Positions 1-40,667 of a stretch of DNA of 40,667 nt are shown piece by piece; position 1 is the first letter of the stretch; every line of letters begins with the position of its first letter. The position numbers and the translations under genes were made by a program. The DNA is from a virus. Below the pieces are notes generated by a model. The model was not told the origin of the DNA. It ran no database searches and saw only the letters and a program-made list of their open reading frames with translations. The stretch covers positions 1 through 40,667 of the IMG/VR virus record IMGVR_UViG_3300045988_150405; one strand, written 5' to 3'.

Positions 1-85
1 ATTTTTTTTTACATTTTGAAAGTATTGAATTTACTGCTTTTCGTAAAATTCATAATACAATTACTTTTATGTCTTTTAAAATTAA
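1..85. repeat. Terminal direct repeat, left copy (identical to 40583-40667)
   Basis: Direct comparison of the window ends. ATTTTTTTTTACATTTTGAAAGTATTG...GTCTTTTAAAATTAA is present at both ends, 85/85 nt identical. Confidence 0.95.
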
Positions 86-112
86 CCGTATATTTATATT
101 TATTTTTTATTA

Positions 113-149
113 ATGATAAAATACAAGGGGACTAATTTCAAAGCCCCTT
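113..149 (-). terminator. Intrinsic terminator-like hairpin (inside 51-nt repeat R1, 115-165)
   Basis: Minus strand has AAGGGG, a 13-nt loop and CCCCTT, followed by GTATTTTATC. It lies about 100 nt downstream of the stop of 250..447. Confidence 0.45.
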
Positions 150-249
150 AGAATTGATTTCAATACTTTCAGAAATCACCATTTTTTACTTGATATTTAT
201 TTAACACCAAAATTTATAATTCTTCTTGGAAAATAAAGGTGTTAATTTT

Positions 250-6820: not shown

Positions 6821-7002
6821 CTTATCCCCCTACTTTTCCATTTATTCTTCATTTCCAACTCTTTTATATATTTGTCAAATTCTTCTTTGCTCATACTTAT
6901 ATTTTTAACTTCAGCTTCTTTATATGCTTTTTCATATGTATATTTCAATTCATTATTTATATTGTGTCCCCATTGACTTACTTCTAATCTTCCCATATCC
7001 AT
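6817..7002 (-). CDS. Hypothetical protein (61 aa)
   Basis: ORF on the coding strand overlapping the 3' end of the primase-helicase gene. Confidence 0.5.
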   Translation of the reverse strand: MDMGRLEVSQWGHNINNELKYTYEKAYKEAEVKNISMSKEEFDKYIKELEMKNKWKSRGIR

Positions 7003-8822
7003 TCCCCTTCTATTTGTTCAAATTCTTCAAGTAAATAATTTACCTCTAACTCTTCTCCATTACCATTTTTTTTATAAAACCTTCTTCTGTCTTTATCGAA
7101 TAATAAAGCAGTATCTAATCTAGTACCCATATATCTATCTTTGTCTATTGAAAATAAAGTATGTTTATCTATTTTATTACCTTCTTCATCTTCTTCTTTT
7201 ATTCTTTGAACTAGCATTACATAATCTGCTAAGTTAGTTATATTAGCTGATCCACTTATATCAGATTTATCAAGTCCAGTTTGACCGTTCTGTGCTTTTC
7301 TTGGATGTGCTACAAGATGAACTATTGCATTATATTTTTTAGCGAAGCTTTTTAATTTTTTCACTATTTCAGTTTGATTTCTTAATTCTTCTTTCTCATC
7401 ATTTTCAACTACCATTAAATTATCAATGCAAAATACTTTTACGCCGTATCTTTTAGCCATTATCTCCATTTTGCACATAATAGCATTTAAGCTATAATCT
7501 TCTTCTGTATATAAATAGAATTTATCTTCCAAATAATCATCTATTCTACTAATTGCCTTTGATGAAATCTTTTTATACTTATACCCTTTTTTATTCGTAA
7601 ACTCTAATAAATCACCTTCATTTGCAAGTGTATCTAAAAGCCAACCCTTAGCATTACTTTCCGTAAGTTCTCCACTAAATAAAAACACCTTATATCCTTG
7701 TCTTATGCTTTCTCCTATAAAGAATTGATTTAATATAGTTGACTTACCTTCCCCAGTTCTTCCAGTTATAACATTTAAGCTTCCTAAAGGCATACCTATA
7801 ATTTCATCATCTATTGCACCTATACCCAATTGAATTGTTTCGGCTTCATATATATTAAAAGTTGATATTTGTTTAGTGCTTTTAACTCCATCTATTAAAG
7901 GTGTAGAAGCTTTTTCAAATTGCTTTAATACTGCTAATTTACCATACTTGAATAATATTTCATTTATATCGTTGCATATATCTGAATAAACTATTTTTAC
8001 AGTTTTGTTAGGCAATCTGTTAAATACTTCTTTTACTCCTTCTTTTCCTGCTTCGTCATTATCATACCAAAGAATAATTTCTTCAAATTGCTCTAACCAA
8101 GTCCAGTTAGTTGTGATCCATTCGGTAGACTTACAACCAGTTGGAACTGATACTGCATTTTTAATCCCACTTTCAATAAGACTTAAACAGTCAAATTCAC
8201 CTTCGCATATTACCAATGGTTTAGTTATATCTGCTTTATCCATTAAGTATAAAGTATTTATATTAGTTTCAGCTTCAAACCAAGTCTTTAATTGTTTTTT
8301 ATTTTTATCTATCTTGTAGCTAGGTCTATATTTATTTGTTATATGTTCTCCTAGTTCATTTTTATAAACAAATACTATATTACCTTTATTGTCTTCTTTA
8401 ACATCTGCATATTTTATTGTATTTTCGCTTATACACCTTTTATTTATATATGAAATAGATTTAGAAATGTTATTCTGATGTACTGTAGGAGGTTTTATAG
8501 CCTTTCTTTCTGTATTAATGATTAATTTATCAGTAGATATATCAAAATCGCTTACAATTGATTTTACGGCTTCTATAAATGATTTATTATAATATTCTTG
8601 GTAATGATTAAATATATCGTAAGTATGACCACAACTAAAGCATCTAAATTTTTTAGCTTTCATATCAAAACTCATACTTGAAACTTTTTCATTATGATTA
8701 AAACACAAACACTTGTTACTCTTATCTAACTTTAATCCCAAATCAGAAGCTATTTTATTTTTAACTTCTTCTGCTCTTATTTGATTTTTTATATCATCAA
8801 TTATTTTTTTTATATTCATCAT
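6984..8822 (-). CDS. Bifunctional DNA primase-helicase (T7 gp4-like)
   Basis: Contains a CHC2 zinc finger (CLCFNHNEK...CFSCGHTYD), a TOPRIM domain (VICEGEFDCLSL...WYDNDEAGK), and a DnaB/RecA-type Walker A ITGRTGEGKST with Walker B VFCIDNL. Confidence 0.85.
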   Translation of the reverse strand: MMNIKKIIDDIKNQIRAEEVKNKIASDLGLKLDKSNKCLCFNHNEKVSSMSFDMKAKKFRCFSCGHTYDIFNHYQEYYNKSFIEAVKSIVSDFDISTDKLIINTERKAIKPPTVHQNNISKSISYINKRCISENTIKYADVKEDNKGNIVFVYKNELGEHITNKYRPSYKIDKNKKQLKTWFEAETNINTLYLMDKADITKPLVICEGEFDCLSLIESGIKNAVSVPTGCKSTEWITTNWTWLEQFEEIILWYDNDEAGKEGVKEVFNRLPNKTVKIVYSDICNDINEILFKYGKLAVLKQFEKASTPLIDGVKSTKQISTFNIYEAETIQLGIGAIDDEIIGMPLGSLNVITGRTGEGKSTILNQFFIGESIRQGYKVFLFSGELTESNAKGWLLDTLANEGDLLEFTNKKGYKYKKISSKAISRIDDYLEDKFYLYTEEDYSLNAIMCKMEIMAKRYGVKVFCIDNLMVVENDEKEELRNQTEIVKKLKSFAKKYNAIVHLVAHPRKAQNGQTGLDKSDISGSANITNLADYVMLVQRIKEEDEEGNKIDKHTLFSIDKDRYMGTRLDTALLFDKDRRRFYKKNGNGEELEVNYLLEEFEQIEGEWIWED

Positions 8823-9556
8823 ACCATTTTTCTCCCACTTGAATATTTTTGAGTATTATTACATATACTAGGATTAACTTTAATATTTTTGTTTTCAGCA
8901 CCTACTGCAATAGGTGTTTTTTTATTTGCTTCATTTAGATAATTTTCAAATTTAGTTCCAAATAAAGTTGCTGGTCTTAAATATTTTTCAAAATCTGTTC
9001 CTAACCATTCCCTACTTTTACTATCAATAACTTTCTTAAAATCTTCTACTACATATCCTTCTTTTACTCTAGCATTTATAAAACTTTGAGTATTTTTAGT
9101 AGTTGCCCTGTAATTAGTAGAAGCTTTTTTGTTTAAATAATCTATAACTAAACTATATATATTATTATTATTTTCTTTTTTCTTTGATAGTGTTGTTACA
9201 TTGTTGTTAGATTGTTGTTGCTTATCACCTTCAACCTGTTGCAATTGCTCGCTTTTATTTGTTACATTGTTGTTAAATAATTGTTGCTTAATTGTTATTT
9301 TTAAAGTGCTTTCTTTTCCCTTACTCCCACTTGTTAAAAATTCAATATATCCTTTTTTTTCAAGGTTTTTAAGTATAGTCCTAACTTTTTGAGTTGTTAA
9401 TCCTAATACTTTATCAGAACTTGCAACTAATTGACCTACTGTATATCCTGTTATATTAGTGTTAAAATTTGAATACCTATACAACAATATTAAAATTTCT
9501 CTTTCATATATATTCATGTCTTTTTGGTCTATTGGTATAAGCCCATATCTTTTCAT
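8819..9556 (-). CDS. Phage replisome organizer / DnaD-domain replication initiator
   Basis: N-terminal winged-helix (LTTQKVRTILKNLEKKGYIEF), a Q/N-rich linker, and a C-terminal DnaD/DnaB_2-like repeat (YLNKKASTNYRATTKNTQSFINARVKEGYVVEDFKKVID...YLRPATLFGTKFENYL). The ATGA overlap couples it to the primase-helicase. Confidence 0.75.
   Translation of the reverse strand: MKRYGLIPIDQKDMNIYEREILILLYRYSNFNTNITGYTVGQLVASSDKVLGLTTQKVRTILKNLEKKGYIEFLTSGSKGKESTLKITIKQQLFNNNVTNKSEQLQQVEGDKQQQSNNNVTTLSKKKENNNNIYSLVIDYLNKKASTNYRATTKNTQSFINARVKEGYVVEDFKKVIDSKSREWLGTDFEKYLRPATLFGTKFENYLNEANKKTPIAVGAENKNIKVNPSICNNTQKYSSGRKMV
9180..9290. repeat. Iteron cluster inside the organizer gene (candidate phage ori)
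   Basis: At least five units of about 11 bp, TnTAACAACAA on the minus strand (TTGTTGTTAnA on plus). Blocks 9180-9219 and 9253-9275 recur at 33971-34010 (39/40) and 34043-34065 (23/23). Confidence 0.6.
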
Positions 9557-9569
9557 ATTATCCCCCCAG

Positions 9570-9749
9570 TTAGCTTAATAGATCGTCATAAGTAACCTTA
9601 AACAATTCCTTTAATAATTTTATCTCCTCAATTGTAAAAGCCCTTTTCCCTAATTCTTTATTGCTATAACTATTTTGTTTTATATTTAAAATGTTAGCAA
9701 TTTCAGTTTGAGTATAACCATTTTTAAGCCTATATTCTTTTACTTTCAT
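9570..9749 (-). CDS. Xre/Cro-family HTH protein (59 aa)
   Basis: Not in the track (<60 aa). GGGGGAGGAA RBS. Translation: MKVKEYRLKNGYTQTEIANILNIKQNSYSNKELGKRAFTIEEIKLLKELFKVTYDDLLS, the classic Xre HTH pattern. Confidence 0.7.
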   Translation of the reverse strand: MKVKEYRLKNGYTQTEIANILNIKQNSYSNKELGKRAFTIEEIKLLKELFKVTYDDLLS

Positions 9750-12274: not shown

Positions 12275-12322
12275 CTCTTATTTATTTTTTTTATTTTCTC
12301 TTTCCCTTGTTTCTATATTTAT

Positions 12323-12353
12323 ATTATATCACAAATGTATCTAAAAGATACAT
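12323..12353 (-). promoter_or_regulatory. Extended -10 promoter plus palindromic operator (copy 2)
   Basis: Minus strand ATGTATC-TTTTA-GATACAT (perfect 7-bp arms, 12335-12353), then a 6-nt gap, then TGTGATATAAT. Coordinates verified against plus ORF 12221..12649. Confidence 0.6.
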
Positions 12354-12408
12354 TTTATTTAAAAAAAATATTTGAGAAATTATCGACAAACTTCTCAAAA
12401 TCATCTTT

Positions 12409-12588: not shown

Positions 12589-12616
12589 CTCGCACCTCAC
12601 AATATTTATAATACAT

Positions 12617-12647
12617 ATTATACCACAAAGTTATCTAAAAGATACAT
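12617..12647 (-). promoter_or_regulatory. Extended -10 promoter plus operator (copy 1)
   Basis: Minus strand ATGTATC-TTTTA-GATAACT, then a 6-nt gap, then TGTGGTATAAT. Same architecture and spacing as copy 2. Confidence 0.55.
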
Positions 12648-12682
12648 AAAAAATAAAAAATATACCTCCAATTTAGGAAGTA
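12648..12682 (-). terminator. Intrinsic terminator
   Basis: Minus strand TACTTCC-TAAATT-GGAGGTA (one G.U) followed by TATTTTTTATTTTTT. Confidence 0.55.
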
Positions 12683-12967: not shown

Positions 12968-13360
12968 CTAAGCTATCATCTGGAATATTGCATATATTAA
13001 AGCAATTATTAATATATAAGTTAAGCAACCCCAACTTGCAGAACTTTTTTCAACTTGATTTTTAAGTACTTGATAAGTTTTCCATTCCTTTTCTTCTAAC
13101 TGGATCGTTGGCTTATCTCTTGACTGACCTAATTTATTGTATTTAGGAGAATATTTTGTTATATAATAAGTTTCATAAATTAAAGCATCACTTTCGGTCT
13201 TATACTTCTGATATTCTATTTTATATACATTATGATAGCAATTATCTGATAAATGTCCTTTGCCTCCAAAATGTTGTTGCATACGCAAATTTATATTTAT
13301 CGTTTTGCCTATATATATTACATTATTATCTTTATCTAAGAATCTATAGACAAACGCCAT
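12968..13360 (-). CDS. GIY-YIG nuclease-domain protein with a C-terminal hydrophobic tail anchor
   Basis: FVYRFLDKDNNVIYIGKTININLRMQQH...ALIYETYYITKYSPKYN is a GIY-YIG core. The last 20 aa, CLTYILIIALIYAIFQMIA, are TM-like. The GGAGG RBS overlaps the TAG of the upstream ATPase gene (11-nt gap). Confidence 0.7.
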   Translation of the reverse strand: MAFVYRFLDKDNNVIYIGKTININLRMQQHFGGKGHLSDNCYHNVYKIEYQKYKTESDALIYETYYITKYSPKYNKLGQSRDKPTIQLEEKEWKTYQVLKNQVEKSSASWGCLTYILIIALIYAIFQMIA

Positions 13361-13371
13361 AAAACTGCCTC

Positions 13372-14307
13372 CTATTCTCTTAAATAAGGTTTTAATATTT
13401 CTTCCATTTCATCTTCATCTATATACATTATTTGCACTTCTCTTATTCCATTTTTATTTTTAACTTTACATCTACCAGTTACAGTTATATCTTGCAAATC
13501 TTGATTTTTCCCCATTAAAGTATTACTATCTGTTTCATCAAATGCCTTAAATCCTATCACTTGAGGACAATTCATTTTGCATTTACCTATCGTATCTTTT
13601 GTAGCATCTTGCCCTCCTAATATAAAATAAATTCCATATTTTCTGCACTTACTCATTATTCTATGAAGTTCGGTTTTGCATTTATTATCTACTGATAACT
13701 GAACTAATTCATCAACTATAACTATTATATAACTCATTTTTTTATCATATTTTTTATTATAATTAATTACATTCCTACAATTACATTCGTCTAATATTTT
13801 AGATCTTTCTTTCATCTTGTTATCTAAAAACTCAACTATATCTAAAAAACCCTTGTTGTCAGTTCTTACCTTTTTAAAATTTTTATATTTCCTAAAGTAA
13901 TATATATCACTTTCTGCACCGTCCCAACCTAAGAAGAATACTTCTCTTTCTGTATAAGTTTTCATTAAGCTTGTTATTATAACATTTAATAAATTAGATT
14001 TTCCTCCGCCAGTCATACCTCCTATTAATATATGACCATCTAATATATCTATTATTTCTTTTTCTTTATTCATATTATAGCCTATACAAACTTTTAAACC
14101 TTCTTTTTCTCCTTCTGTAAAGGTATATTTAATTTTATTTAAATCTATTTTTTCAGTTTCATATTCCTCAATTGGTAAATACTTATATTTAACTATATTT
14201 TCAATTTCTACAACTTCATCATCTGATTTGTTAGCTTCATAAACTATCTTGCAAGTATAAGCAAATATTCCACCTATTGCCCCTACTAATAAACCTTGAA
14301 TTAACAT
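13372..14307 (-). CDS. Membrane-anchored FtsK/SpoIIIE (HerA-clade) P-loop ATPase
   Basis: N-terminal TM MLIQGLLVGAIGGIFAYTC, Walker A IGGMTGGGKSN and Walker B YIIVIVDEL. The size and layout match the short FtsK-like ATPases of mobile elements. Confidence 0.7.
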   Translation of the reverse strand: MLIQGLLVGAIGGIFAYTCKIVYEANKSDDEVVEIENIVKYKYLPIEEYETEKIDLNKIKYTFTEGEKEGLKVCIGYNMNKEKEIIDILDGHILIGGMTGGGKSNLLNVIITSLMKTYTEREVFFLGWDGAESDIYYFRKYKNFKKVRTDNKGFLDIVEFLDNKMKERSKILDECNCRNVINYNKKYDKKMSYIIVIVDELVQLSVDNKCKTELHRIMSKCRKYGIYFILGGQDATKDTIGKCKMNCPQVIGFKAFDETDSNTLMGKNQDLQDITVTGRCKVKNKNGIREVQIMYIDEDEMEEILKPYLRE

Positions 14308-16621: not shown

Positions 16622-17563
16622 TTAAAAATTATCTTTGAAAATTCCCTTAGCATTAGGGTTTCTACCACTCCAATTTGTTCCATTTTTTAAATCTAATTTA
16701 TATGCAATATCTTCGTTTGACATATCTTCTACACTTTTCAGTTCTCCATTTACATCAACTTTGCTATCTGCCATATATATTGAACCTTTTCTTTTGTCAT
16801 TATCAGCATTAGTATTACTACTTCTATCCCCATACTTATAAGCTAATCTTAAAGCTTTTATTCCATGAGATTTTTTACCATTTGCAATATCTATTTCGCA
16901 TATTTCTAAAGCTTCTTTTAATTTATCTATATCAGTAAATTCTTCTTCACATTTTTTCAAATCTTGCTTTCTAATATTTACACAACTATTATTTATAATT
17001 TCCACAATTTCACTTTCTTTATTTTTTTCATTTTTATCTGTATCTTTTAGGTCATTCTGTGGTATACTGTTATTAGATTTGATATTTTCTTTGTTGGCTT
17101 TTACTGGTGGCACAGTAGAAGCTTTTTTATTTTTCATATCTTCATCATCTTCTGTTATGCTTGGTAATAAAGAATATAATATATCAGTAGGTGCAAAATA
17201 AGAACGTGTGCCTTCTGCATCTTTTTTAGTATATCTTTTAAATATTCCTAAAAATTTAGCTTTCTCTCTTTTCTTTCTAGTGCTAGCACTCATTGAATTA
17301 AGTCTTTCTTCCCAATCATGTGGTTTAGTTCCTAAATCATAATGCAACATATCACTTATAGCTTGTTTTTTAATGCCTAATATATCTAAATCTGTTGCTA
17401 CTTTCTCATACTTAACCCAGTAATAAAACTCACCATTTACAAGTATTTTTTCCATTTTATTACTGTTTATAAAATTCAATAAATACCTTATTACTAAACT
17501 TTCATCATGGCTTATGCCAACCTCTTTTAATCTAGTACTTAAAAAACCATGTATATATTTCAT
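16622..17563 (-). CDS. Putative winged-helix replication-initiator-like / DNA-binding protein (313 aa)
   Basis: The N-terminal ~130 aa (SLVIRYLLNFI...YYWVKYEKVATDLDILGIKKQAISDMLHY...FLGIFKRYTKKDAEGTRSYF) looks like a winged helix, followed by an acidic/basic low-complexity linker. It is adjacent to the iteron/DnaA-box region. The family was not identified. Confidence 0.35.
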   Translation of the reverse strand: MKYIHGFLSTRLKEVGISHDESLVIRYLLNFINSNKMEKILVNGEFYYWVKYEKVATDLDILGIKKQAISDMLHYDLGTKPHDWEERLNSMSASTRKKREKAKFLGIFKRYTKKDAEGTRSYFAPTDILYSLLPSITEDDEDMKNKKASTVPPVKANKENIKSNNSIPQNDLKDTDKNEKNKESEIVEIINNSCVNIRKQDLKKCEEEFTDIDKLKEALEICEIDIANGKKSHGIKALRLAYKYGDRSSNTNADNDKRKGSIYMADSKVDVNGELKSVEDMSNEDIAYKLDLKNGTNWSGRNPNAKGIFKDNF

Positions 17564-17580
17564 TTAGTCATCTCCCTTTA

Positions 17581-17916
17581 TTATTCAACTATTCCTTTTA
17601 CATTAAGCTTCTCTATATTTGTTTTATTAAGCTTAAATAAAACAACAGTTCCAAATTCTCTACCCTTTTTTAAAATTTCCCTTGTTATAAATTTTTTCAT
17701 ACCTTCTTTATCTAACATTCTTCTAAGCTTAACGGAATTAGCTTCATAACTTTTACTATTAAATATAATAGGCAAATCATTTATTATTCTGTTATATGGC
17801 AATTCAAACTCTTCACCTAATTCTTCTTTTTCTGATATTAAAGATAAATAACTTATAAGAGTTATATCTTTTACATCAATATTATTGCTTATAGCCATTT
17901 CAAAATTGATATTCAT
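17581..17916 (-). CDS. Small winged-helix-like protein (111 aa), first early gene
   Basis: AAGGAGG RBS. DITLISYLSLISE...YNRIINDLP...SVKLRRMLDKEGMKKFITREILKKGREFGTVVLFKL resembles the N-terminal domain of the next gene. Confidence 0.4.
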   Translation of the reverse strand: MNINFEMAISNNIDVKDITLISYLSLISEKEELGEEFELPYNRIINDLPIIFNSKSYEANSVKLRRMLDKEGMKKFITREILKKGREFGTVVLFKLNKTNIEKLNVKGIVE

Positions 17917-17946
17917 TTTTAACCTCCTTATTTGTTTGTTAATATT

Positions 17947-17975
17947 ATTATATACTATTAAATAAAATATGTAAA
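17947..17975 (-). promoter_or_regulatory. Strong sigmaA-type early promoter
   Basis: Minus strand TTTACA, a 17-nt spacer and TATAAT, about 30 nt upstream of the first early gene RBS. Confidence 0.6.
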
Positions 17976-18006
17976 TGTTTTTTATTAAAAGATATTTTTT
18001 ATTATT

Positions 18007-18023
18007 TATATATATATATATAT
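18007..18023. repeat. (TA)8 dinucleotide tract in an AT-rich stretch (candidate DNA-unwinding element)
   Basis: TATATATATATATATAT read directly. The flanks are almost pure A/T. Confidence 0.8.
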
Positions 18024-18063
18024 CTATAATAACTTCCCTATAATAACTTATCTATCTTTGTTT

Positions 18064-18168
18064 AATTCCACGGAATGTACCCCGTCAATTCCACGGAATG
18101 TACCCCGTCAATTCCACGGAATGTGTGGGTATTATATTTTTACTTATACCGTCAATTCCACGGAACGT
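18064..18168. repeat. Four iterons AATTCCACGGAA(T/C)GT
   Basis: Copies start at about 18064, 18087, 18110 and 18154. The first three are spaced exactly 23 bp within the unit GTACCCCGTCAATTCCACGGAAT. The core is the inverted repeat ATTCC-N2-GGAAT. Confidence 0.85.
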
Positions 18169-18206
18169 GTGCAGTATTTTCAACGGTTTAAGCTATAAAC
18201 AATATT

Positions 18207-18233
18207 TGTGGATTATGTGGATTGTGTGGATAA
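18207..18233. promoter_or_regulatory. Three tandem DnaA-box-like 9-mers
   Basis: TGTGGATTA TGTGGATTG TGTGGATAA. The third is the exact reverse complement of TTATCCACA. The others have 1 and 2 mismatches. Confidence 0.7.
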
Positions 18234-18310
18234 ACTCATATACAATATAATTGTTAAAATTTTACAAGCACCTAGTAGAGATAAGCACACTCACCCACAA
18301 AGGAGGAAAA

Positions 18311-18442
18311 ATGAAAATAAAATTACTTGAAAATGATAAAGTAATCGAAGTACCAAACTACTGGAAATGGCATTTAGTAGATGGAAGAAAAGTTATAATA
18401 GATCAGAATAAAAAAATAATTGCTTTAGTTATAGAAAAATAA
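18311..18442 (+). CDS. Small plus-strand protein (43 aa)
   Basis: AAAGGAGGAAAA RBS directly before the ATG (internal Met 21 of track ORF 18251..18442). Translation: MKIKLLENDKVIEVPNYWKWHLVDGRKVIIDQNKKIIALVIEK. Confidence 0.6.
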   Translation: MKIKLLENDKVIEVPNYWKWHLVDGRKVIIDQNKKIIALVIEK

Positions 18443-18507
18443 TGTATAAATATATTCAGATATGTTTATAATACCTTTTAAATTAGATTTTAAAGGGCGT
18501 GAAATAG

Positions 18508-18681
18508 ATGTTTAATATATTTAATCAAGATAAGGAAGAAAAAGGCTCATACTGGGAAAGAAATCACCAAGATAATTTTTATAGTGAGAGTAGTTATAAT
18601 AACAATTTTCAATATTGTAGATGTTGTGATAGGTATCAAAGGTTTGAGTATGATAGATGTTGTGTATGTAAATCAAATTAA
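18508..18681 (+). CDS. Small Cys-rich plus-strand protein (57 aa)
   Basis: Not in the track (<60 aa). Translation: MFNIFNQDKEEKGSYWERNHQDNFYSESSYNNNFQYCRCCDRYQRFEYDRCCVCKSN. Weak AAAGGG RBS. Frame checked against antisense track ORF 18521..18709. Confidence 0.4.
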   Translation: MFNIFNQDKEEKGSYWERNHQDNFYSESSYNNNFQYCRCCDRYQRFEYDRCCVCKSN

Positions 18682-18825
18682 AATAGCCTATACGGGGAGT
18701 ATAAGCCATTAAAACATTAGAATTTAATTTTAGGGTTGTAATGATATTTAGTGAAATTTTTCAAAAATCTAGACAATAATTATAAACTTATTGTACAACT
18801 TAATTATATTTTTTATAATAAAATT

Positions 18826-18980
18826 TGTCAATATTTTGCCGAATAAAGAGGGTTTTAACTGCTTTTATAGAATTGTATATATGTACTAAAATTTGGCTGT
18901 GTTTTAGTGCCTCCTTTACTTTTCATTATTAATTATATCGTCAATAAAGAAGATTGCTTTTAGCAGTCTTTTTTTTATTT
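18826..18980 (+). ncRNA. Candidate ~150-nt plus-strand small RNA (promoter 18791-18819, terminator 18950-18980)
   Basis: TTGTAC, a 17-nt spacer and TATAAT on plus. No ORF longer than 12 codons follows. It ends in the hairpin AAGATTGC-TTTTA-GCAGTCTT (one G.U, plus-sense only) plus a TTTTTTTATTT tail. It contains the anti-SD-like GCCTCCTTT. Confidence 0.3.
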
Positions 18981-18994
18981 GCCTAAATTTAAGC

Positions 18995-19023
18995 ATAAAA
19001 AAGAAGCTAATCCCTAAAGCTTC
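18995..19023 (-). terminator. Intrinsic terminator (second one after the lysis genes)
   Basis: Minus strand GAAGCT-TTAGGGATT-AGCTTC followed by TTTTTTATGC. Confidence 0.5.
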
Positions 19024-19147
19024 CCCTTTTACTGAACTTATATGGTTGTTTGTTGATATTGAAATCTTTAGCCGATTAACTGTTGAATTTATACTCTACA
19101 ACTCGAGTGTTGCAAATTAAAGTTGGATATACTTATATTGTAGCAAG

Positions 19148-19184
19148 TAAAAAAAGCTATCGCAACAAGACAATAGCTTTTTCT
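19148..19184. terminator. Bidirectional intrinsic terminator after the endolysin gene
   Basis: AAAGCTAT, a 12-nt loop and ATAGCTTT, flanked by an A-run upstream and a T-run downstream. Confidence 0.6.
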
Positions 19185-19343
19185 AATACAAATTACAAAA
19201 CAAATACAAAACTTTAAAAATAAAGAATCATAAAAAATACAGATTAAAGATAAGATAATATATTCTTACTTTGTGTAATATTATTTTTAAAAAACTATCA
19301 TTAGTTTTTATTATATTATACCATATTTTACCAAAAAAATAAA

Positions 19344-20030
19344 CTATCTAGGAATTAAATATGTATCTTTATAGCCTTTATTTATTAATTCTTGTTGCAT
19401 TTTCTTAGCATTATCATAATTATAAGCACCAGTACAAACTGCATAAAGTTTTTTATCAGTAGATGAAGTGTTAGAAGTGTTATTTTCAGTAATAGTTTGA
19501 TTTGCTATACCCTCTGCTATTAATTTAGCTATCTTTTCTCTATTAGATGTATATTTATCAGTATCACTTTTATTAGATACAAAGCAAGTTTCTATTAATA
19601 TTGCAGGAGGGTTAGTTAATCTTAACCAACCTAAATCACGCTTTAGATCGTTTATATCATGTTTAATTTTTCTATCTTTAAATTCAGTTTTAAGCTTATC
19701 TTGAACTTTTTGAGCAAATACTTTCCCTTTAGAACTTCTGTATATTACTTCTGTCCCATTAGCAGTTGCATTATCTGAGCTATTAAAGTGTATTTGAACA
19801 ACTAAATCATAATTTTTAGAATTAGCTTTTTTAGCTTGTTGCTCTATATAATCACTTCCACTATTTACTTCATGATAATCTGTTTCACAACCTAATTTTT
19901 TAAGATACTCAACTACAAACTTAGCTAATACCCTATTTTCTTGACTTTCATTTATAAAACCAACTGCACCACATCCCTTATTAGGGTTTAAAGTATGACC
20001 GGCTGATATTAGTAACCTCATTTTATACAC
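19344..20030 (-). CDS. Endolysin: N-acetylmuramoyl-L-alanine amidase (Amidase_3) with a C-terminal SPOR-like domain
   Basis: LLISAGHT...VQIHFNS...GTEVIY...AILIETCFVSN is an Amidase_3 core. C-terminal KKLYAVCTGAYNYDNAKKMQQELINKGYKDTYLIP resembles SPOR. Confidence 0.85.
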   Translation of the reverse strand: MYKMRLLISAGHTLNPNKGCGAVGFINESQENRVLAKFVVEYLKKLGCETDYHEVNSGSDYIEQQAKKANSKNYDLVVQIHFNSSDNATANGTEVIYRSSKGKVFAQKVQDKLKTEFKDRKIKHDINDLKRDLGWLRLTNPPAILIETCFVSNKSDTDKYTSNREKIAKLIAEGIANQTITENNTSNTSSTDKKLYAVCTGAYNYDNAKKMQQELINKGYKDTYLIPR

Positions 20031-33943: not shown

Positions 33944-33970
33944 CACTATATAATATATATTTATTCTTTA

Positions 33971-34090
33971 TTCTTTGATAGTGTTGTTAGATTGTTGTTA
34001 GATTGTTGTTAGCAAATCTCTGCAACCATTGAAAACACTACGTTTTATTTGTTACATTGTTGTTAGATTGTTGTTAGTTGTTGTTAATTA
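33971..34090. repeat. Non-coding second copy of the organizer-gene iteron block
   Basis: Seven units of about 11 bp, TTGTTGTTAnA. 33971-34010 matches 9180-9219 (39/40) and 34043-34065 matches 9253-9275 (23/23). Stops occur in all frames. Confidence 0.85.
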
Positions 34091-34115
34091 ATTTTTTTAT
34101 AATTGTTAATAGTTA

Positions 34116-39805: not shown

Positions 39806-40516
39806 TTATTTTTTATTATAAAGAAGCTTTAATTCTTTTACTAAATTATTAGCTTCTTTTTCATTATCGAACGCCCCTTTATTGATTTGCTTTATTCTGC
39901 CATTACCGTCTTTGTACTCAACATATACAATATATCTATCATTTCTTTTTCTGCAAAATATTGTTCTTATATTGTAATTAACATTATCGAAGTTGAATAA
40001 TGAAATATCAGCAACATCGTTCTTTTTATTTGTAGCCATTTTATTTACTATTTCTTTACTATAATCCAACCATTTATCTTTTGAAAAGTCGGATATAATA
40101 AAAGCTTCTTCATTATATAAATGGTCTGAGTTGTATTTAGGCTTGTAAAGATTAATGTAATACATTTCTTTTATATCCATTAAAACTGTAGATGATAAAG
40201 TCATAAATTGTATTTTGTAAATTTCTTCATAGCATTTCATAGGAAGATGACTATTTTTAGATATATGCGAATTTATCTTATATTCAATCCTTTCAGTTTT
40301 GCCTACATATATAACTTCTTTGTCGAAATTTAAAAACCTATATACGCATTTTAAGTTATTAGTTTTCATTTCCATATATTTTTTTCTTGAATATTCAGCA
40401 TTACATTGTTTGCAATAACTCAATATTGAAGGCTTAACCCCTTCTTTTGTCTTTCTATTTCTATATCCAAACTCACTTAATGACTTAATCTTAAAACATC
40501 TAGTGCATTTCTTCAT
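39806..40516 (-). CDS. GIY-YIG endonuclease with an N-terminal Zn finger and a C-terminal integrase-Arm/AP2-type DNA-binding domain (homing-endonuclease-like)
   Basis: CTRCFKIK...YCKQCN; VYRFLNFDKEVIYVGKTERIEYKINSH...MYYINLYKPKYN; C-terminal RYIVYVEYKDGNGRIKQINKGAFDNEKEANNLVKELK resembles the Arm DNA-binding pattern (W...V.Y.D..GK.K...K.GF.TK.EAE). Confidence 0.7.
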   Translation of the reverse strand: MKKCTRCFKIKSLSEFGYRNRKTKEGVKPSILSYCKQCNAEYSRKKYMEMKTNNLKCVYRFLNFDKEVIYVGKTERIEYKINSHISKNSHLPMKCYEEIYKIQFMTLSSTVLMDIKEMYYINLYKPKYNSDHLYNEEAFIISDFSKDKWLDYSKEIVNKMATNKKNDVADISLFNFDNVNYNIRTIFCRKRNDRYIVYVEYKDGNGRIKQINKGAFDNEKEANNLVKELKLLYNKK

Positions 40517-40582: not shown

Positions 40583-40667
40583 ATTTTTTTTTACATTTTG
40601 AAAGTATTGAATTTACTGCTTTTCGTAAAATTCATAATACAATTACTTTTATGTCTTTTAAAATTAA
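40583..40667. repeat. Terminal direct repeat, right copy (identical to 1-85)
   Basis: 85/85 nt identical to the start of the window. Confidence 0.95.

What the first reader, a model, noticed from the sequence alone, without database searches (positions are those of the whole stretch)
18007..18233. Plasmid-style origin module (TA tract, phased iterons, three tandem DnaA boxes) in a phage with no integrase
The only divergent intergenic region lies between the minus-strand early promoter (TTTACA-17-TATAAT, 17947-17975) and the only plus-strand genes.

It contains three elements:
- (TA)8 at 18007-18023.
- AATTCCACGGAA(T/C)GT four times, at about 18064, 18087, 18110 and 18154. The first three are exactly 23 bp apart, and each core is the inverted repeat ATTCC-N2-GGAAT.
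- Three abutting 9-mers, TGTGGATTA TGTGGATTG TGTGGATAA (18207-18233). The last is the exact reverse complement of the DnaA-box consensus TTATCCACA.

An AT-rich tract, helically phased iterons and DnaA boxes next to winged-helix protein genes (17581..17916, 16622..17563) is the classical layout of iteron-controlled theta-plasmid origins. I found no integrase, recombinase or attP-like module anywhere in the 40.6 kb.

Two hypotheses follow: an episomal (phage-plasmid) carrier state, or host-DnaA-dependent initiation. A separate phage-type replication module (8819..9556 plus 6984..8822) is also present, so two initiation systems may coexist in one small genome.
Basis: partly seen in the sequence, partly recalled or inferred. 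Interest (0 to 1): 0.7.

Follow-up and report, generated by a model that had tools for sequence, protein, structure and literature searches.

The report
Swappable phage replication origin cassette
The repeats are real and most likely form a phage replication origin, read by the neighbouring 313-aa initiator-like protein and flanked by three host DnaA boxes; the phage also carries a second, separate origin system, and nothing shows that it lives as a plasmid.

Summary
Comparative evidence supports an origin.

- **The 313-aa ORF (16622-17563) looks like a modular initiator.** It has a winged-helix N-terminal domain (NTD) homologous to that of Phg_2220_C replisome organisers. Its C-terminal domain (CTD) is fused elsewhere to RepA_N, DnaD_N or HTH_36 domains.
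- **The DNA cassette recurs with this NTD family.** About four 22-23-bp iterons with dyad cores, an ACAAAGAT junction and 14-15-bp AT-rich repeats lie inside the rep genes of a C. difficile plasmid and a temperate phage.
- **Sister phages swap the cassette.** At least six lineages keep the architecture at this site but exchange iteron type and initiator NTD. The DnaA boxes stay constant wherever that flank was assembled.
- **17936-18035 is the least stable duplex in the genome.**

A second system exists. 11-bp repeats lie inside the organiser gene (9150-9300), and the segment is duplicated at 33946-34100.

The phage-plasmid idea is unsupported: I found no partition genes, no repressor, no matching plasmid record and no integrated copy. 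The DnaA boxes could instead control the weak plus-strand promoter.

Verdict: a new variant of a known kind, of moderate interest.

The parts
18207..18233 (-). Three abutting DnaA-box-like 9-mers. On the minus strand they read TTATCCACA, CAATCCACA, TAATCCACA.
   Evidence: Three boxes are kept in 11 of the 13 sister loci that cover this flank. L046 (third degenerate) and L049 keep two, although their iterons differ. The boxes overlap the -35 of the weak plus-strand promoter.
18149..18170 (-). Lone fourth iteron, CCGTCAATTCCACGGAACGTGT. It is 44 bp from the third copy.
   Evidence: A lone distal copy is also present in L046, L047 and L051-53.
18125..18148 (.). AT-rich spacer between the lone iteron and the array
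   Evidence: invariant in close relatives.
18059..18124 (-). Three iterons at an exact 23-bp period. In gene orientation the unit is ACATTCCGTGGAATTGACGGGGT, with dyad core ATTCC-N2-GGAAT.
   Evidence: TRF score 122, 100% matches. The same 22-23-bp, roughly four-copy layout with dyad cores occurs in L012, L015, L043, L046, L048 and L049.
18047..18063 (-). Junction motif AAACAAAGATAGATAAG (gene orientation), directly after the last iteron
   Evidence: ACAAAGAT, or CAAAGAT in L015, follows the last iteron in the window, L012, L015, L046 and L048.
18021..18055 (.). 14-bp AT-rich direct repeats, 2.5 copies (CTATAATAACTT at 18024 and 18038). These are candidate DUE repeats.
   Evidence: Repeats of 13-15 bp occupy the same place in every lineage, with different sequence.
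17976..18035 (.). AT-rich tract that includes (TA)8 at 18007-18023. This is the predicted unwinding element.
   Evidence: By nearest-neighbour energies it is the least stable duplex of the whole window at 20, 40, 60 and 100 bp. The 100-bp window 17936-18035 scores -89.9 kcal/mol against a mean of -114.4 (sd 5.7).
17947..17975 (-). Sigma-70-type early promoter TTTACA-17-TATAAT, reading away from the AT tract
   Evidence: A promoter is kept at this place in sister lineages.
17581..17916 (-). 111-aa small winged-helix protein, first gene of the early operon. Its role is unknown; it may be an autoregulator or accessory protein.
   Evidence: AF2 pLDDT 81 with a generic wHTH fold (PadR/AbfR2-like, weak). 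No Pfam, PHROG or NCBIfam hit. Unrelated small wHTH proteins replace it in L015, L046 and L049.
16622..17563 (-). 313-aa modular initiator-like protein: wHTH NTD (1-135), disordered linker (about 140-184) and helical CTD (about 185-300)
   Evidence: AF2. The NTD is 37% identical to that of the Phg_2220_C protein of pCd18_3 (E 6e-28). It is about 42% identical to P0149, whose gene directly precedes a DnaB helicase gene. The CTD is found fused to RepA_N, DnaD_N or HTH_36 NTDs in other proteins.
18222..18251 (+). Putative weak promoter (TTGTGT-18-TATAAT) for the plus-strand ORFs of 43 aa (18311-18442) and 57 aa (18508-18681)
   Evidence: Read from the sequence. It falls below the scan threshold. 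The -10 region is conserved.

Best explanation
The stretch 17976-18233 is a phage replication origin of the iteron type, and the 313-aa protein encoded just downstream is its initiator.

**Proposed mechanism**
1. The winged-helix NTD of the 313-aa protein binds the four 23-bp iterons, which have dyad cores ATTCC-N2-GGAAT (inferred by homology).
2. The nucleoprotein complex melts the adjacent 14-bp AT-rich repeats and the (TA)8 tract. Negative supercoiling behind the two divergent promoters helps (inferred).
3. The CTD recruits replisome components. This CTD is shared among initiators with different NTDs (inferred by analogy with the pSK41 Rep CTD, which binds DnaG).
4. The three DnaA boxes on the far side of the iterons probably bind host DnaA as an accessory factor. 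The order DnaA boxes, iterons, DUE is that of RK2 oriV. This is the least certain step.
5. The 111-aa winged-helix protein is an accessory or autoregulator of unknown role.

**Second system**
A separate initiator and origin pair coexists. It comprises the 245-aa Phg_2220_C organiser, the primase-helicase, and 11-bp repeats at 9150-9300 and 33946-34100.

**Shown versus inferred**
- Shown: the sequence anatomy, the homologies, the conservation and co-variation across lineages, and the duplex instability.
- Inferred: binding, melting, DnaA use and actual initiation.
For: **Initiator-like protein**
- AF2 gives a wHTH NTD, a linker and a helical CTD.
- The NTD is homologous to that of Phg_2220_C replisome organisers (E 6e-28 to pCd18_3).
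- Of 66 remote NTD relatives, 9 carry Phg_2220_C and 2 carry DnaB_2.
- Relative P0149 lies directly upstream of a DnaB helicase gene.
- The best BFVD fold hits include a Phg_2220_C protein (E 1e-5).
- The CTD is fused to RepA_N (3), DnaD_N (3) or HTH_36 (4) NTDs in 19 relatives. One such fusion sits at the same genomic site in L049.
- This matches the modular pSK41/pPR9 Rep organisation described in PMC5703833.

**Cassette homology**
- Four 22-23-bp iterons with dyad cores, then ACAAAGAT, then 15-bp AT repeats lie inside the rep genes of pCd18_3 (L012 6427-6549) and L048 (5426-5560).
- There they cannot be promoter operators.

**Co-variation across lineages**
- At least six lineages keep the same architecture at the same site but have at least five iteron types, which change with the initiator NTD.
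- The window and L015 share the identical core although their small proteins are unrelated.

**DNA properties**
- 17936-18035 is the least stable duplex in the 40.7 kb.
- The intergenic DNA is at least as conserved as the flanking genes: 91% against 85-90% nucleotide identity.
- The order DnaA boxes, iterons, DUE equals that of RK2 oriV (PMC4980987).
Against: - There is no experimental evidence of initiation or binding.
- The phage already has a complete organiser plus primase-helicase module with its own repeats. A second origin is therefore not obviously needed.
- The window protein matches no Pfam, NCBIfam or PDB family by sequence.
- Its CTD shows no detectable relation to Phg_2220_C or to any solved structure.
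- In relatives the cassette is inside the gene; here it is upstream, so its function could have changed.
- DnaA boxes are absent from the in-gene cassettes of L012 and L048.
- Here the boxes belong to the conserved block that holds the plus-strand promoter, so they may not be part of the origin.
- Iteron type does not map cleanly to NTD identity. L012 and L048 have NTDs 68% identical but different iterons.
Confidence: 0.62

Rival explanations
1. The region is only a transcriptional control region for the two divergent promoters. On this view the iterons are operator or activator sites for the 111-aa or 313-aa winged-helix proteins. The DnaA boxes would let host DnaA tune the weak plus-strand promoter. 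No replication would start here.
For: - The region lies between two promoters (sequence).
- The DnaA boxes overlap the -35 of the plus-strand promoter and travel with that conserved block.
- The first gene encodes a small wHTH with a PadR-like fold, typical of regulators.
- A complete replication module exists elsewhere.
Against: - The iterons lie 90-220 bp upstream of the early -35 and do not overlap either promoter.
- The homologous cassette sits inside rep genes about 430 bp from the gene start in L012 and L048, where it cannot be an operator.
- The partner protein has initiator architecture, not repressor architecture.
- The AT-rich repeats and the genome-wide stability minimum have no explanation on this view.
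Confidence: 0.15
2. The module is the plasmid-maintenance replicon of an integrase-less phage-plasmid, as P1 oriR/RepA is alongside lytic oriL. A DnaA-dependent, iteron-controlled replicon would maintain a carrier state. The organiser plus primase-helicase system would drive lytic replication.
For: - No integrase was found.
- There are two distinct initiator and origin pairs.
- A homologous NTD and cassette serve in the C. difficile plasmid pCd18_3, whose record also annotates ParA.
- All related contigs are phage-sized, and one is binned in a Clostridium MAG.
- The window assembles as a circle with an 85-nt terminal overlap.
Against: - No ParA/ParB, ParM, TubZ or toxin-antitoxin genes and no CI-like repressor were detected.
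- The initiator is driven by a near-consensus early promoter, co-directional with the other early genes downstream.
- The genome carries several GIY-YIG homing endonucleases and a fused primase-helicase. I read this as more typical of virulent phages, from my own knowledge.
- No PLSDB plasmid record matches the window.
- A scan of 185,579 GTDB species genomes returned only one hit, a 48.9-kb contig in a MAG, with no isolate genome.
- A circular assembly is equally expected for terminally redundant phage DNA.
Confidence: 0.13
3. The repeats form a partition centromere bound by the small winged-helix protein, as in TubR/tubC or ParR/parC.
For: Iterated repeats lie directly upstream of a gene for a roughly 100-aa wHTH protein, which resembles tubC-tubR (from my own knowledge; layout).
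Against: - The downstream 313-aa protein has no NTPase fold, tubulin-like or actin-like.
- No partition ATPase or GTPase was detected in the scanned ORFs.
- The iteron core is unchanged when the small protein is swapped for an unrelated one.
Confidence: 0.04

Closest known systems
Phage and plasmid replisome organisers with a Phg_2220_C (TIGR02220) C-terminus, such as WP_070112840 of C. difficile plasmid pCd18_3 and the organiser next to DnaB in locus L048
   Same: - The NTDs are homologous (37-43% identity).
- The DNA cassette is the same: about four 22-23-bp iterons with dyad cores, ACAAAGAT, then roughly 15-bp AT-rich repeats.
   Different: - The CTD is unrelated (hhalign probability 0.1).
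- Here the cassette lies upstream of the operon, not inside the linker-coding part of the gene.
- Here it is joined to three DnaA boxes and preceded by a small wHTH gene. L012 and L048 have no DnaA boxes near their iterons.
RepA_N theta-replicon initiators (pSK41 Rep, 319 aa) and the chimeric pPR9 Rep
   Same: - The three-part build is shared: a wHTH NTD of about 120 aa that binds four Rep boxes, a dispensable linker, and a helical CTD that contacts the replisome.
- NTDs can be exchanged on a constant CTD; pPR9 carries an HTH_36 NTD (PMC5703833).
- The window's CTD occurs with RepA_N, DnaD_N and HTH_36 NTDs.
- Weak fold hits fall on 4pql and on the DnaD NTD 2v79. From memory, 4pql is a RepA_N-family NTD.
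   Different: - The window NTD does not match Pfam RepA_N.
- The CTD has no detectable sequence relation to solved structures.
- The pSK41 ori lies within rep, and its copy control is by antisense RNA.
Iteron plasmid origins of Gram-negative bacteria (RK2 oriV, P1 oriR, F oriS, pSC101)
   Same: - The elements come in the same order: DnaA boxes, directly repeated iterons, AT-rich DUE with short repeats (RK2: PMC4980987).
- A winged-helix initiator gene lies adjacent.
   Different: - Those initiators belong to the Rep_3/TrfA families with two WH domains, and there is no such match here.
- The host phylum is different.
- No inverted half-iteron operator lies at the promoter.
SPP1-type oriL/oriR (an origin inside the organiser gene plus a distant copy). 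This is the closest analogue for the window's second system. The comparison rests on my own knowledge.
   Same: Repeats lie in the organiser gene (9150-9300), and about 150 bp are duplicated in the late region (33946-34100).
   Different: - It concerns the other initiator, the 245-aa protein, not the finding itself.
- The protein families were not compared with SPP1 G38P here.

Membership tests
Rep_3-type iteron theta replicon (pSC101, F, P1, RK2-like) | The initiator carries a Rep_3 or TrfA double winged-helix domain | tested here: not met
   Neither the 313-aa nor the 111-aa ORF has a Pfam or NCBIfam hit. AF2 shows one wHTH plus a helical CTD.
Rep_3-type iteron theta replicon (pSC101, F, P1, RK2-like) | Three or more direct iterons about two helical turns apart, next to an AT-rich DUE | tested here: met
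   There are 3+1 iterons at 23 bp. The adjacent tract is the least stable duplex in the window.
Rep_3-type iteron theta replicon (pSC101, F, P1, RK2-like) | DnaA boxes that bind host DnaA and are needed for initiation | tested here: inconclusive
   The sequence matches (0, 2 and 1 mismatches) are conserved in sister lineages. Binding and requirement cannot be tested here, and the boxes overlap a promoter -35.
Rep_3-type iteron theta replicon (pSC101, F, P1, RK2-like) | The fragment replicates autonomously | not testable with these tools
   This needs cloning in the host, which is unknown and probably a Clostridium.
RepA_N / phage replisome-organiser class of initiators | An N-terminal wHTH DNA-binding domain, a linker and a C-terminal helical domain | tested here: met
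   AF2 gives residues 1-135 at pLDDT above 95, a linker of about 140-184 at low pLDDT, and helices over 185-294.
RepA_N / phage replisome-organiser class of initiators | Sequence membership of the NTD in RepA_N, DnaD_N or HTH_36, or homology to organiser NTDs | tested here: inconclusive
   The window NTD has no Pfam match. It does show clear homology to the NTDs of Phg_2220_C and DnaB_2 proteins. The same CTD is paired with RepA_N, DnaD_N or HTH_36 in relatives.
RepA_N / phage replisome-organiser class of initiators | The origin repeats lie inside the initiator gene, in the linker-coding region | tested here: not met
   Here they lie 150-250 bp upstream of the operon. The feature is met in homologues L012 and L048. 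It is also met by the window's other organiser, 8819-9556.
RepA_N / phage replisome-organiser class of initiators | A Phg_2220_C or DnaD-like (DDBH2) C-terminal domain | tested here: not met
   There is no Pfam hit. hhalign of the CTD profile against a Phg_2220_C profile gives probability 0.1.
Phage-plasmid (P1-like, or like C. difficile pCd18_3) | A partition or stability system (ParA/ParB, ParM, TubZ, toxin-antitoxin) | tested here: not met
   None appears in the Pfam, PHROG or NCBIfam scans of the ORFs tested. There is only an FtsK-like ATPase at 13372-14307.
Phage-plasmid (P1-like, or like C. difficile pCd18_3) | Found as an extrachromosomal replicon in cultured hosts | tested here: not met
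   PLSDB gives no DNA match. The GTDB species-genome scan gives a single hit, a 48.9-kb contig of a MAG.
Phage-plasmid (P1-like, or like C. difficile pCd18_3) | A lysogeny repressor that silences the lytic genes | tested here: inconclusive
   No CI-like protein was found. Only small XRE HTH proteins on the early strand were seen, for example 9570-9749, plus an unstudied conserved putative sRNA.
Type III (TubZRC) or type II (ParMRC) partition locus | A tubulin-like or actin-like NTPase is encoded next to the centromere-binding protein | tested here: not met
   The 313-aa protein is a wHTH plus a helical domain with no NTPase fold or motif.

The most novel reading that the evidence does not exclude
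This common group of gut Clostridium phages may carry two independent replicons. One is a host-DnaA-assisted, iteron-controlled replicon whose origin and initiator NTD are exchanged as a cassette between phages, which could set incompatibility or superinfection groups. The other is an SPP1-like organiser system with a duplicated origin. The first replicon would sustain an integrase-less plasmid-like carrier state, making this a new phage-plasmid family without recognisable partition genes.
Probability: 0.13. Interest if true: 0.72.

Novelty: new variant of a known kind. Interest (0 to 1): 0.5.

Why it matters
Origins of Firmicute phages are usually assumed to lie inside the replisome-organiser gene. 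Here a homologous origin cassette has moved into the early divergent promoter region. It has gained a constant trio of DnaA boxes, and it is swapped together with the initiator's DNA-binding domain among otherwise similar phages.

If it is functional, several things follow.
- It would be a natural example of modular evolution of origin and initiator specificity.
- It would define an uncharacterised initiator C-terminal domain family.
- It would be a Firmicute phage that may enlist host DnaA.
- It would be a phage with two distinct initiator and origin pairs, and their division of labour could be tested. The options include early theta replication versus later replication, or lytic growth versus a carrier state.

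The cassette is small and well delimited, so it is directly clonable for such tests.

Tried and rejected
- **Partition locus (TubZRC/ParMRC).** Rejected, because the 313-aa protein is not an NTPase.
- **Direct database matches for the two ORFs.** Pfam, PHROGs, NCBIfam and PDB sequence searches gave nothing useful.
- **CTD profile against PDB.** Only designer PPR repeat proteins came up, through summed weak helical-hairpin matches. I judge these spurious.
- **CTD against Phg_2220_C by hhalign.** No relation.
- **PDB fold search of both models.** Only generic winged-helix hits at E above 0.01.
- **Rfam on 17500-19500.** Nothing.
- **Megablast of the region and of 24 kb against phage and plasmid collections.** No match. 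The single weak blastn hit, in an Enterococcus plasmid gene, is AT-rich noise.
- **Iteron pattern scan of IMG/VR.** 19 of the 21 hits were chance matches inside coding sequence; only L030 and L038 are relatives.
- **Literature searches.** No description of this phage group or cassette was found.
- **DnaA-trio motif next to the boxes, as in bacterial oriC.** I read the flank of the boxes for it and saw none.
- **Inverted half-iteron operator at the early promoter.** Looked for and not seen.
- **Co-variation of the 13-15-bp AT repeats with the small protein.** None was apparent.
Full report
**Context**

The window is a complete phage genome of about 40.6 kb with 27% GC. It assembled as a circle, with an 85-nt exact terminal overlap.

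Almost all genes lie on the minus strand.
- The late genes run from 40.5 kb down to the Amidase_3 endolysin at 19344-20030.
- The early genes run from 17916 down to 1.

The finding lies in the only divergent intergenic region, 17917-18310. That region sits between the first early gene (111 aa, minus strand) and two tiny plus-strand ORFs of 43 aa and 57 aa.

The portal protein is 70% identical to that of the C. difficile siphophages phiCD24-1 and phiCDKH01. The only hit in GTDB species genomes is a 48.9-kb contig of a MAG named 'uncultured Clostridium sp.'.

**Observation**

Every element is present as described.
- (TA)8 lies at 18007-18023.
- AATTCCACGGAAT starts at 18064, 18087 and 18110, which is 23-bp spacing at 100% identity (TRF score 122). 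A fourth copy starts at 18154 and ends GGAAC.
- The three abutting 9-mers lie at 18207-18233. On the minus strand they read TTATCCACA, CAATCCACA and TAATCCACA.
- The iteron core and the perfect DnaA box are each unique to this region.
- The early promoter TTTACA-17-TATAAT is confirmed.

Four points should be added or corrected.
- A 14-bp AT-rich repeat, CTATAATAACTT, occurs twice, at 18024 and 18038.
- A junction motif AAACAAAGATAGATAAG (gene orientation) lies at 18047-18063.
- DnaA-like 9-mers are not enriched genome-wide: 10 are found against 14.2 expected. Only the cluster is remarkable.
- 23 bp is about 2.2 helical turns, so the phasing is approximate.

**The neighbouring proteins**

Neither ORF matches Pfam, PHROGs, NCBIfam or PDB sequences.

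AlphaFold2 models the 111-aa protein as a single winged helix (pLDDT 81). Only generic wHTH fold matches come up, to PadR, AbfR2 and RTP.

The 313-aa protein has three parts:
- a very confident winged-helix NTD (residues 1-135, pLDDT above 95);
- a disordered linker;
- a helical CTD.

The NTD is homologous to the NTD of replisome organisers.
- It is 37% identical (E 6e-28) to the 387-aa 'conserved phage C-terminal domain' protein of C. difficile plasmid pCd18_3.
- It is about 42% identical to P0149. That protein is a 275-aa Phg_2220_C protein encoded directly upstream of a DnaB helicase gene in a temperate phage.
- Of 66 remote NTD relatives, 9 carry Phg_2220_C and 2 carry DnaB_2.
- The best BFVD fold hits include a Phg_2220_C protein (E 1e-5).

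The CTD carries the motif SCVNIRKQDLKKCEEEFTDIDKLKEAL...SHGIKALRLAYKYG. It recurs behind quite different NTDs: RepA_N in 3, DnaD_N in 3 and HTH_36 in 4 of 19 relatives.

This is the modular plan described for pSK41 Rep and the pPR9 chimera. That plan is an NTD that binds Rep boxes, a linker, and a CTD that contacts the replisome (PMC5703833).

The CTD itself matches no known family.

**The DNA cassette is homologous to origins that lie inside rep genes**

In pCd18_3, the linker-coding part of the rep gene holds the following (L012 6427-6549):
- four 22-23-bp repeats GATTCGGTATCAATACCGGAAC;
- then ACAAAGAT;
- then two 15-bp repeats GATTATTCTATTAAT.

In L048 the organiser gene holds four AGTAAAAATACTACAGGGGGTGG repeats, then ACAAAGAT, then AT-rich repeats.

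The window has the same succession in gene orientation:
- ACATTCCGTGGAATTGACGGGGT in three copies;
- AAACAAAGAT;
- AAGTTATTATAG twice;
- (TA)8.

The difference is that here the cassette lies upstream of the operon.

The in-gene copies sit about 430 bp from the gene start, so they cannot be promoter operators. This argues against a purely regulatory reading of the cassette family.

**Sister lineages**

At the same genomic site I recovered at least six lineages. The site reads endolysin, small divergent ORFs, intergenic region, small wHTH, initiator, then ORFs of about 150 aa and 193 aa.

All lineages show this order, as far as each contig extends:
1. two or three DnaA boxes;
2. a lone iteron;
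3. an AT spacer;
4. two or three phased iterons;
5. 13-15-bp AT-rich repeats, 2-3 copies;
6. an AT or (TA)n tract;
7. a promoter;
8. the small wHTH gene;
9. the initiator gene.

The L015 and L043 contigs break inside the iteron array, so their distal flank, including the DnaA boxes, is unseen.

The iteron types differ.

| Lineage | Iteron | Note |
|---|---|---|
| Window, L004, L006-L011 | core ATTCCGTGGAAT | |
| L015 | same core | array inverted |
| L043 | CCATTCGGCTGAACGTACCCCAA | |
| L045-L047 | CATCAAATGATAAGACGGGGTA | |
| L049 | GTAAAAnTTTnTTTAC | RepA_N NTD |
| L051-L053 | units of about 31 bp | HTH_36-like NTD |

The window and L015 share the identical core, although their small proteins are unrelated (111 aa against 78 aa). 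Their large NTDs are 66% identical, and the putative recognition helix is nearly unchanged (KKQAISDM against KKQALSDM).

L051 has a homologue of the 111-aa protein but a different NTD and different iterons.

The NTD of the large protein is therefore the more likely iteron reader. This is an inference. L012 and L048 show that NTDs 68% identical can have different iterons.

**Physical property**

By nearest-neighbour energies, 17936-18035 is the least stable 100-bp duplex of the whole genome. It scores -89.9 kcal/mol against a mean of -114.4 (sd 5.7). The same tract ranks first at 20, 40 and 60 bp.

Two promoters read away from it on either side. The negative supercoiling behind them would favour opening. 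This is an inference from the twin-domain model.

**DnaA boxes**

The trio is kept in almost every lineage whose intergenic region is complete, even where the iterons are replaced. L046 and L049 keep two boxes.

This fits recognition by a constant host factor. The order DnaA boxes, iterons, DUE is that of RK2 oriV (PMC4980987).

Three points weaken the case.
- The mosaic boundary falls right after the boxes, so they belong to the conserved block that holds the plus-strand promoter.
- They overlap that promoter's weak -35 (TTGTGT-18-TATAAT, 18222-18251).
- They are absent from the in-gene cassettes of L012 and L048.

DnaA could therefore act here as a transcription factor, as a replication accessory, or as both.

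**A second system**

The 245-aa Phg_2220_C organiser (8819-9556) is followed by a fused primase-helicase (6984-8822). It carries clusters of the 11-mer AACAACAAT[CG]T in its linker-coding region (9150-9300).

About 150 bp of that segment, including the flanking AT-rich tract, are duplicated in a late intergenic region at 33946-34100. This is the SPP1 oriL/oriR layout, as I recall it.

The two initiators have unrelated NTDs. Both modules are present in every relative whose fetched DNA reaches the organiser region.

**Lifestyle**

No integrase or site-specific recombinase was found. The Arm-DNA-bind_4 hit at 39806-40516 lies in a GIY-YIG homing endonuclease.

Equally, the following were absent:
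- any partition or addiction genes, or a CI-like repressor;
- any plasmid record that matches the window;
- any integrated copy, or any copy in an isolate genome.

All related contigs are phage-sized, 37-49 kb. The episomal carrier state therefore remains a possibility without positive evidence.

**Verdict**

The best explanation is an iteron-type replication origin served by a modular winged-helix initiator (confidence 0.62). It is homologous to origins that normally sit inside replisome-organiser genes. Here it has been relocated to the early control region and joined to DnaA boxes.

It is a new variant of a known kind. The interesting points are:
- the cassette-like exchange of iterons plus NTD on a constant CTD and constant DnaA boxes;
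- the coexistence of two initiator and origin pairs;
- the possible use of host DnaA by a Firmicute phage.

Noticed in passing
window 9150-9300 and 33946-34100: A segment of about 150 bp holds an AT-rich tract plus two clusters of the 11-mer AACAACAAT[CG]T. It lies inside the linker-coding region of the 245-aa Phg_2220_C organiser gene (residues 86-136). It is duplicated 24.7 kb away in a late intergenic region. This resembles the SPP1 oriL/oriR pair and probably marks the origin(s) of the second replication system.
   Followed up: partly
window 18682-18831 (minus strand): A perfect consensus promoter (TTGACA-17-TATAAT, 18831->18803) is followed about 90 nt later by an intrinsic terminator (18710-18682). 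Promoter, body and terminator stem are conserved in L004, L006, L007, L045 and L046. This is a putative sRNA of about 115 nt, antisense to the 3' end of the plus-strand transcript. It has no Rfam match.
   Followed up: partly
window 1-85 and 40583-40667: There is an exact 85-nt terminal direct repeat. The contig is a circular assembly with a unique length of 40,582 bp.
   Followed up: yes
window 12968-13360 and 39806-40516; L006 6879-7571, L007 17968-18768, L010 14628-15728: GIY-YIG and other homing-endonuclease-like genes sit at different positions in otherwise collinear relatives. One of them carries an Arm-DNA-bind_4 domain that could be mistaken for an integrase fragment.
   Followed up: partly
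window 13372-14307 (minus strand): An FtsK/SpoIIIE-like ATPase of 311 aa lies in the early region and is conserved in all relatives. Its function in this phage is unknown.
   Followed up: no
window 18508-18681 (plus strand): A conserved 57-aa ORF is rich in cysteine (CRCCDRY...CCVC). It is one of only two plus-strand genes. In L045-L047 the divergent block expands to about ten small ORFs with no known domains.
   Followed up: no
window 105-170 / 460-525 and 12321-12370 / 12615-12664: Two pairs of repeated 50-66-nt non-coding elements each hold a hairpin, for example AAGGGGACTAATTTCAAAGCCCCTT. They may be repeated terminators or regulatory sites in the early region.
   Followed up: no
L014-L017, L043, L044, L050: Many short metagenome contigs of sister lineages break exactly inside the iteron array. 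Perfect tandem 23-bp copies longer than the assembler's k-mer would explain this. It means the distal part of the origin, including the DnaA boxes, is unseen for the L015 and L043 lineages.
   Followed up: partly
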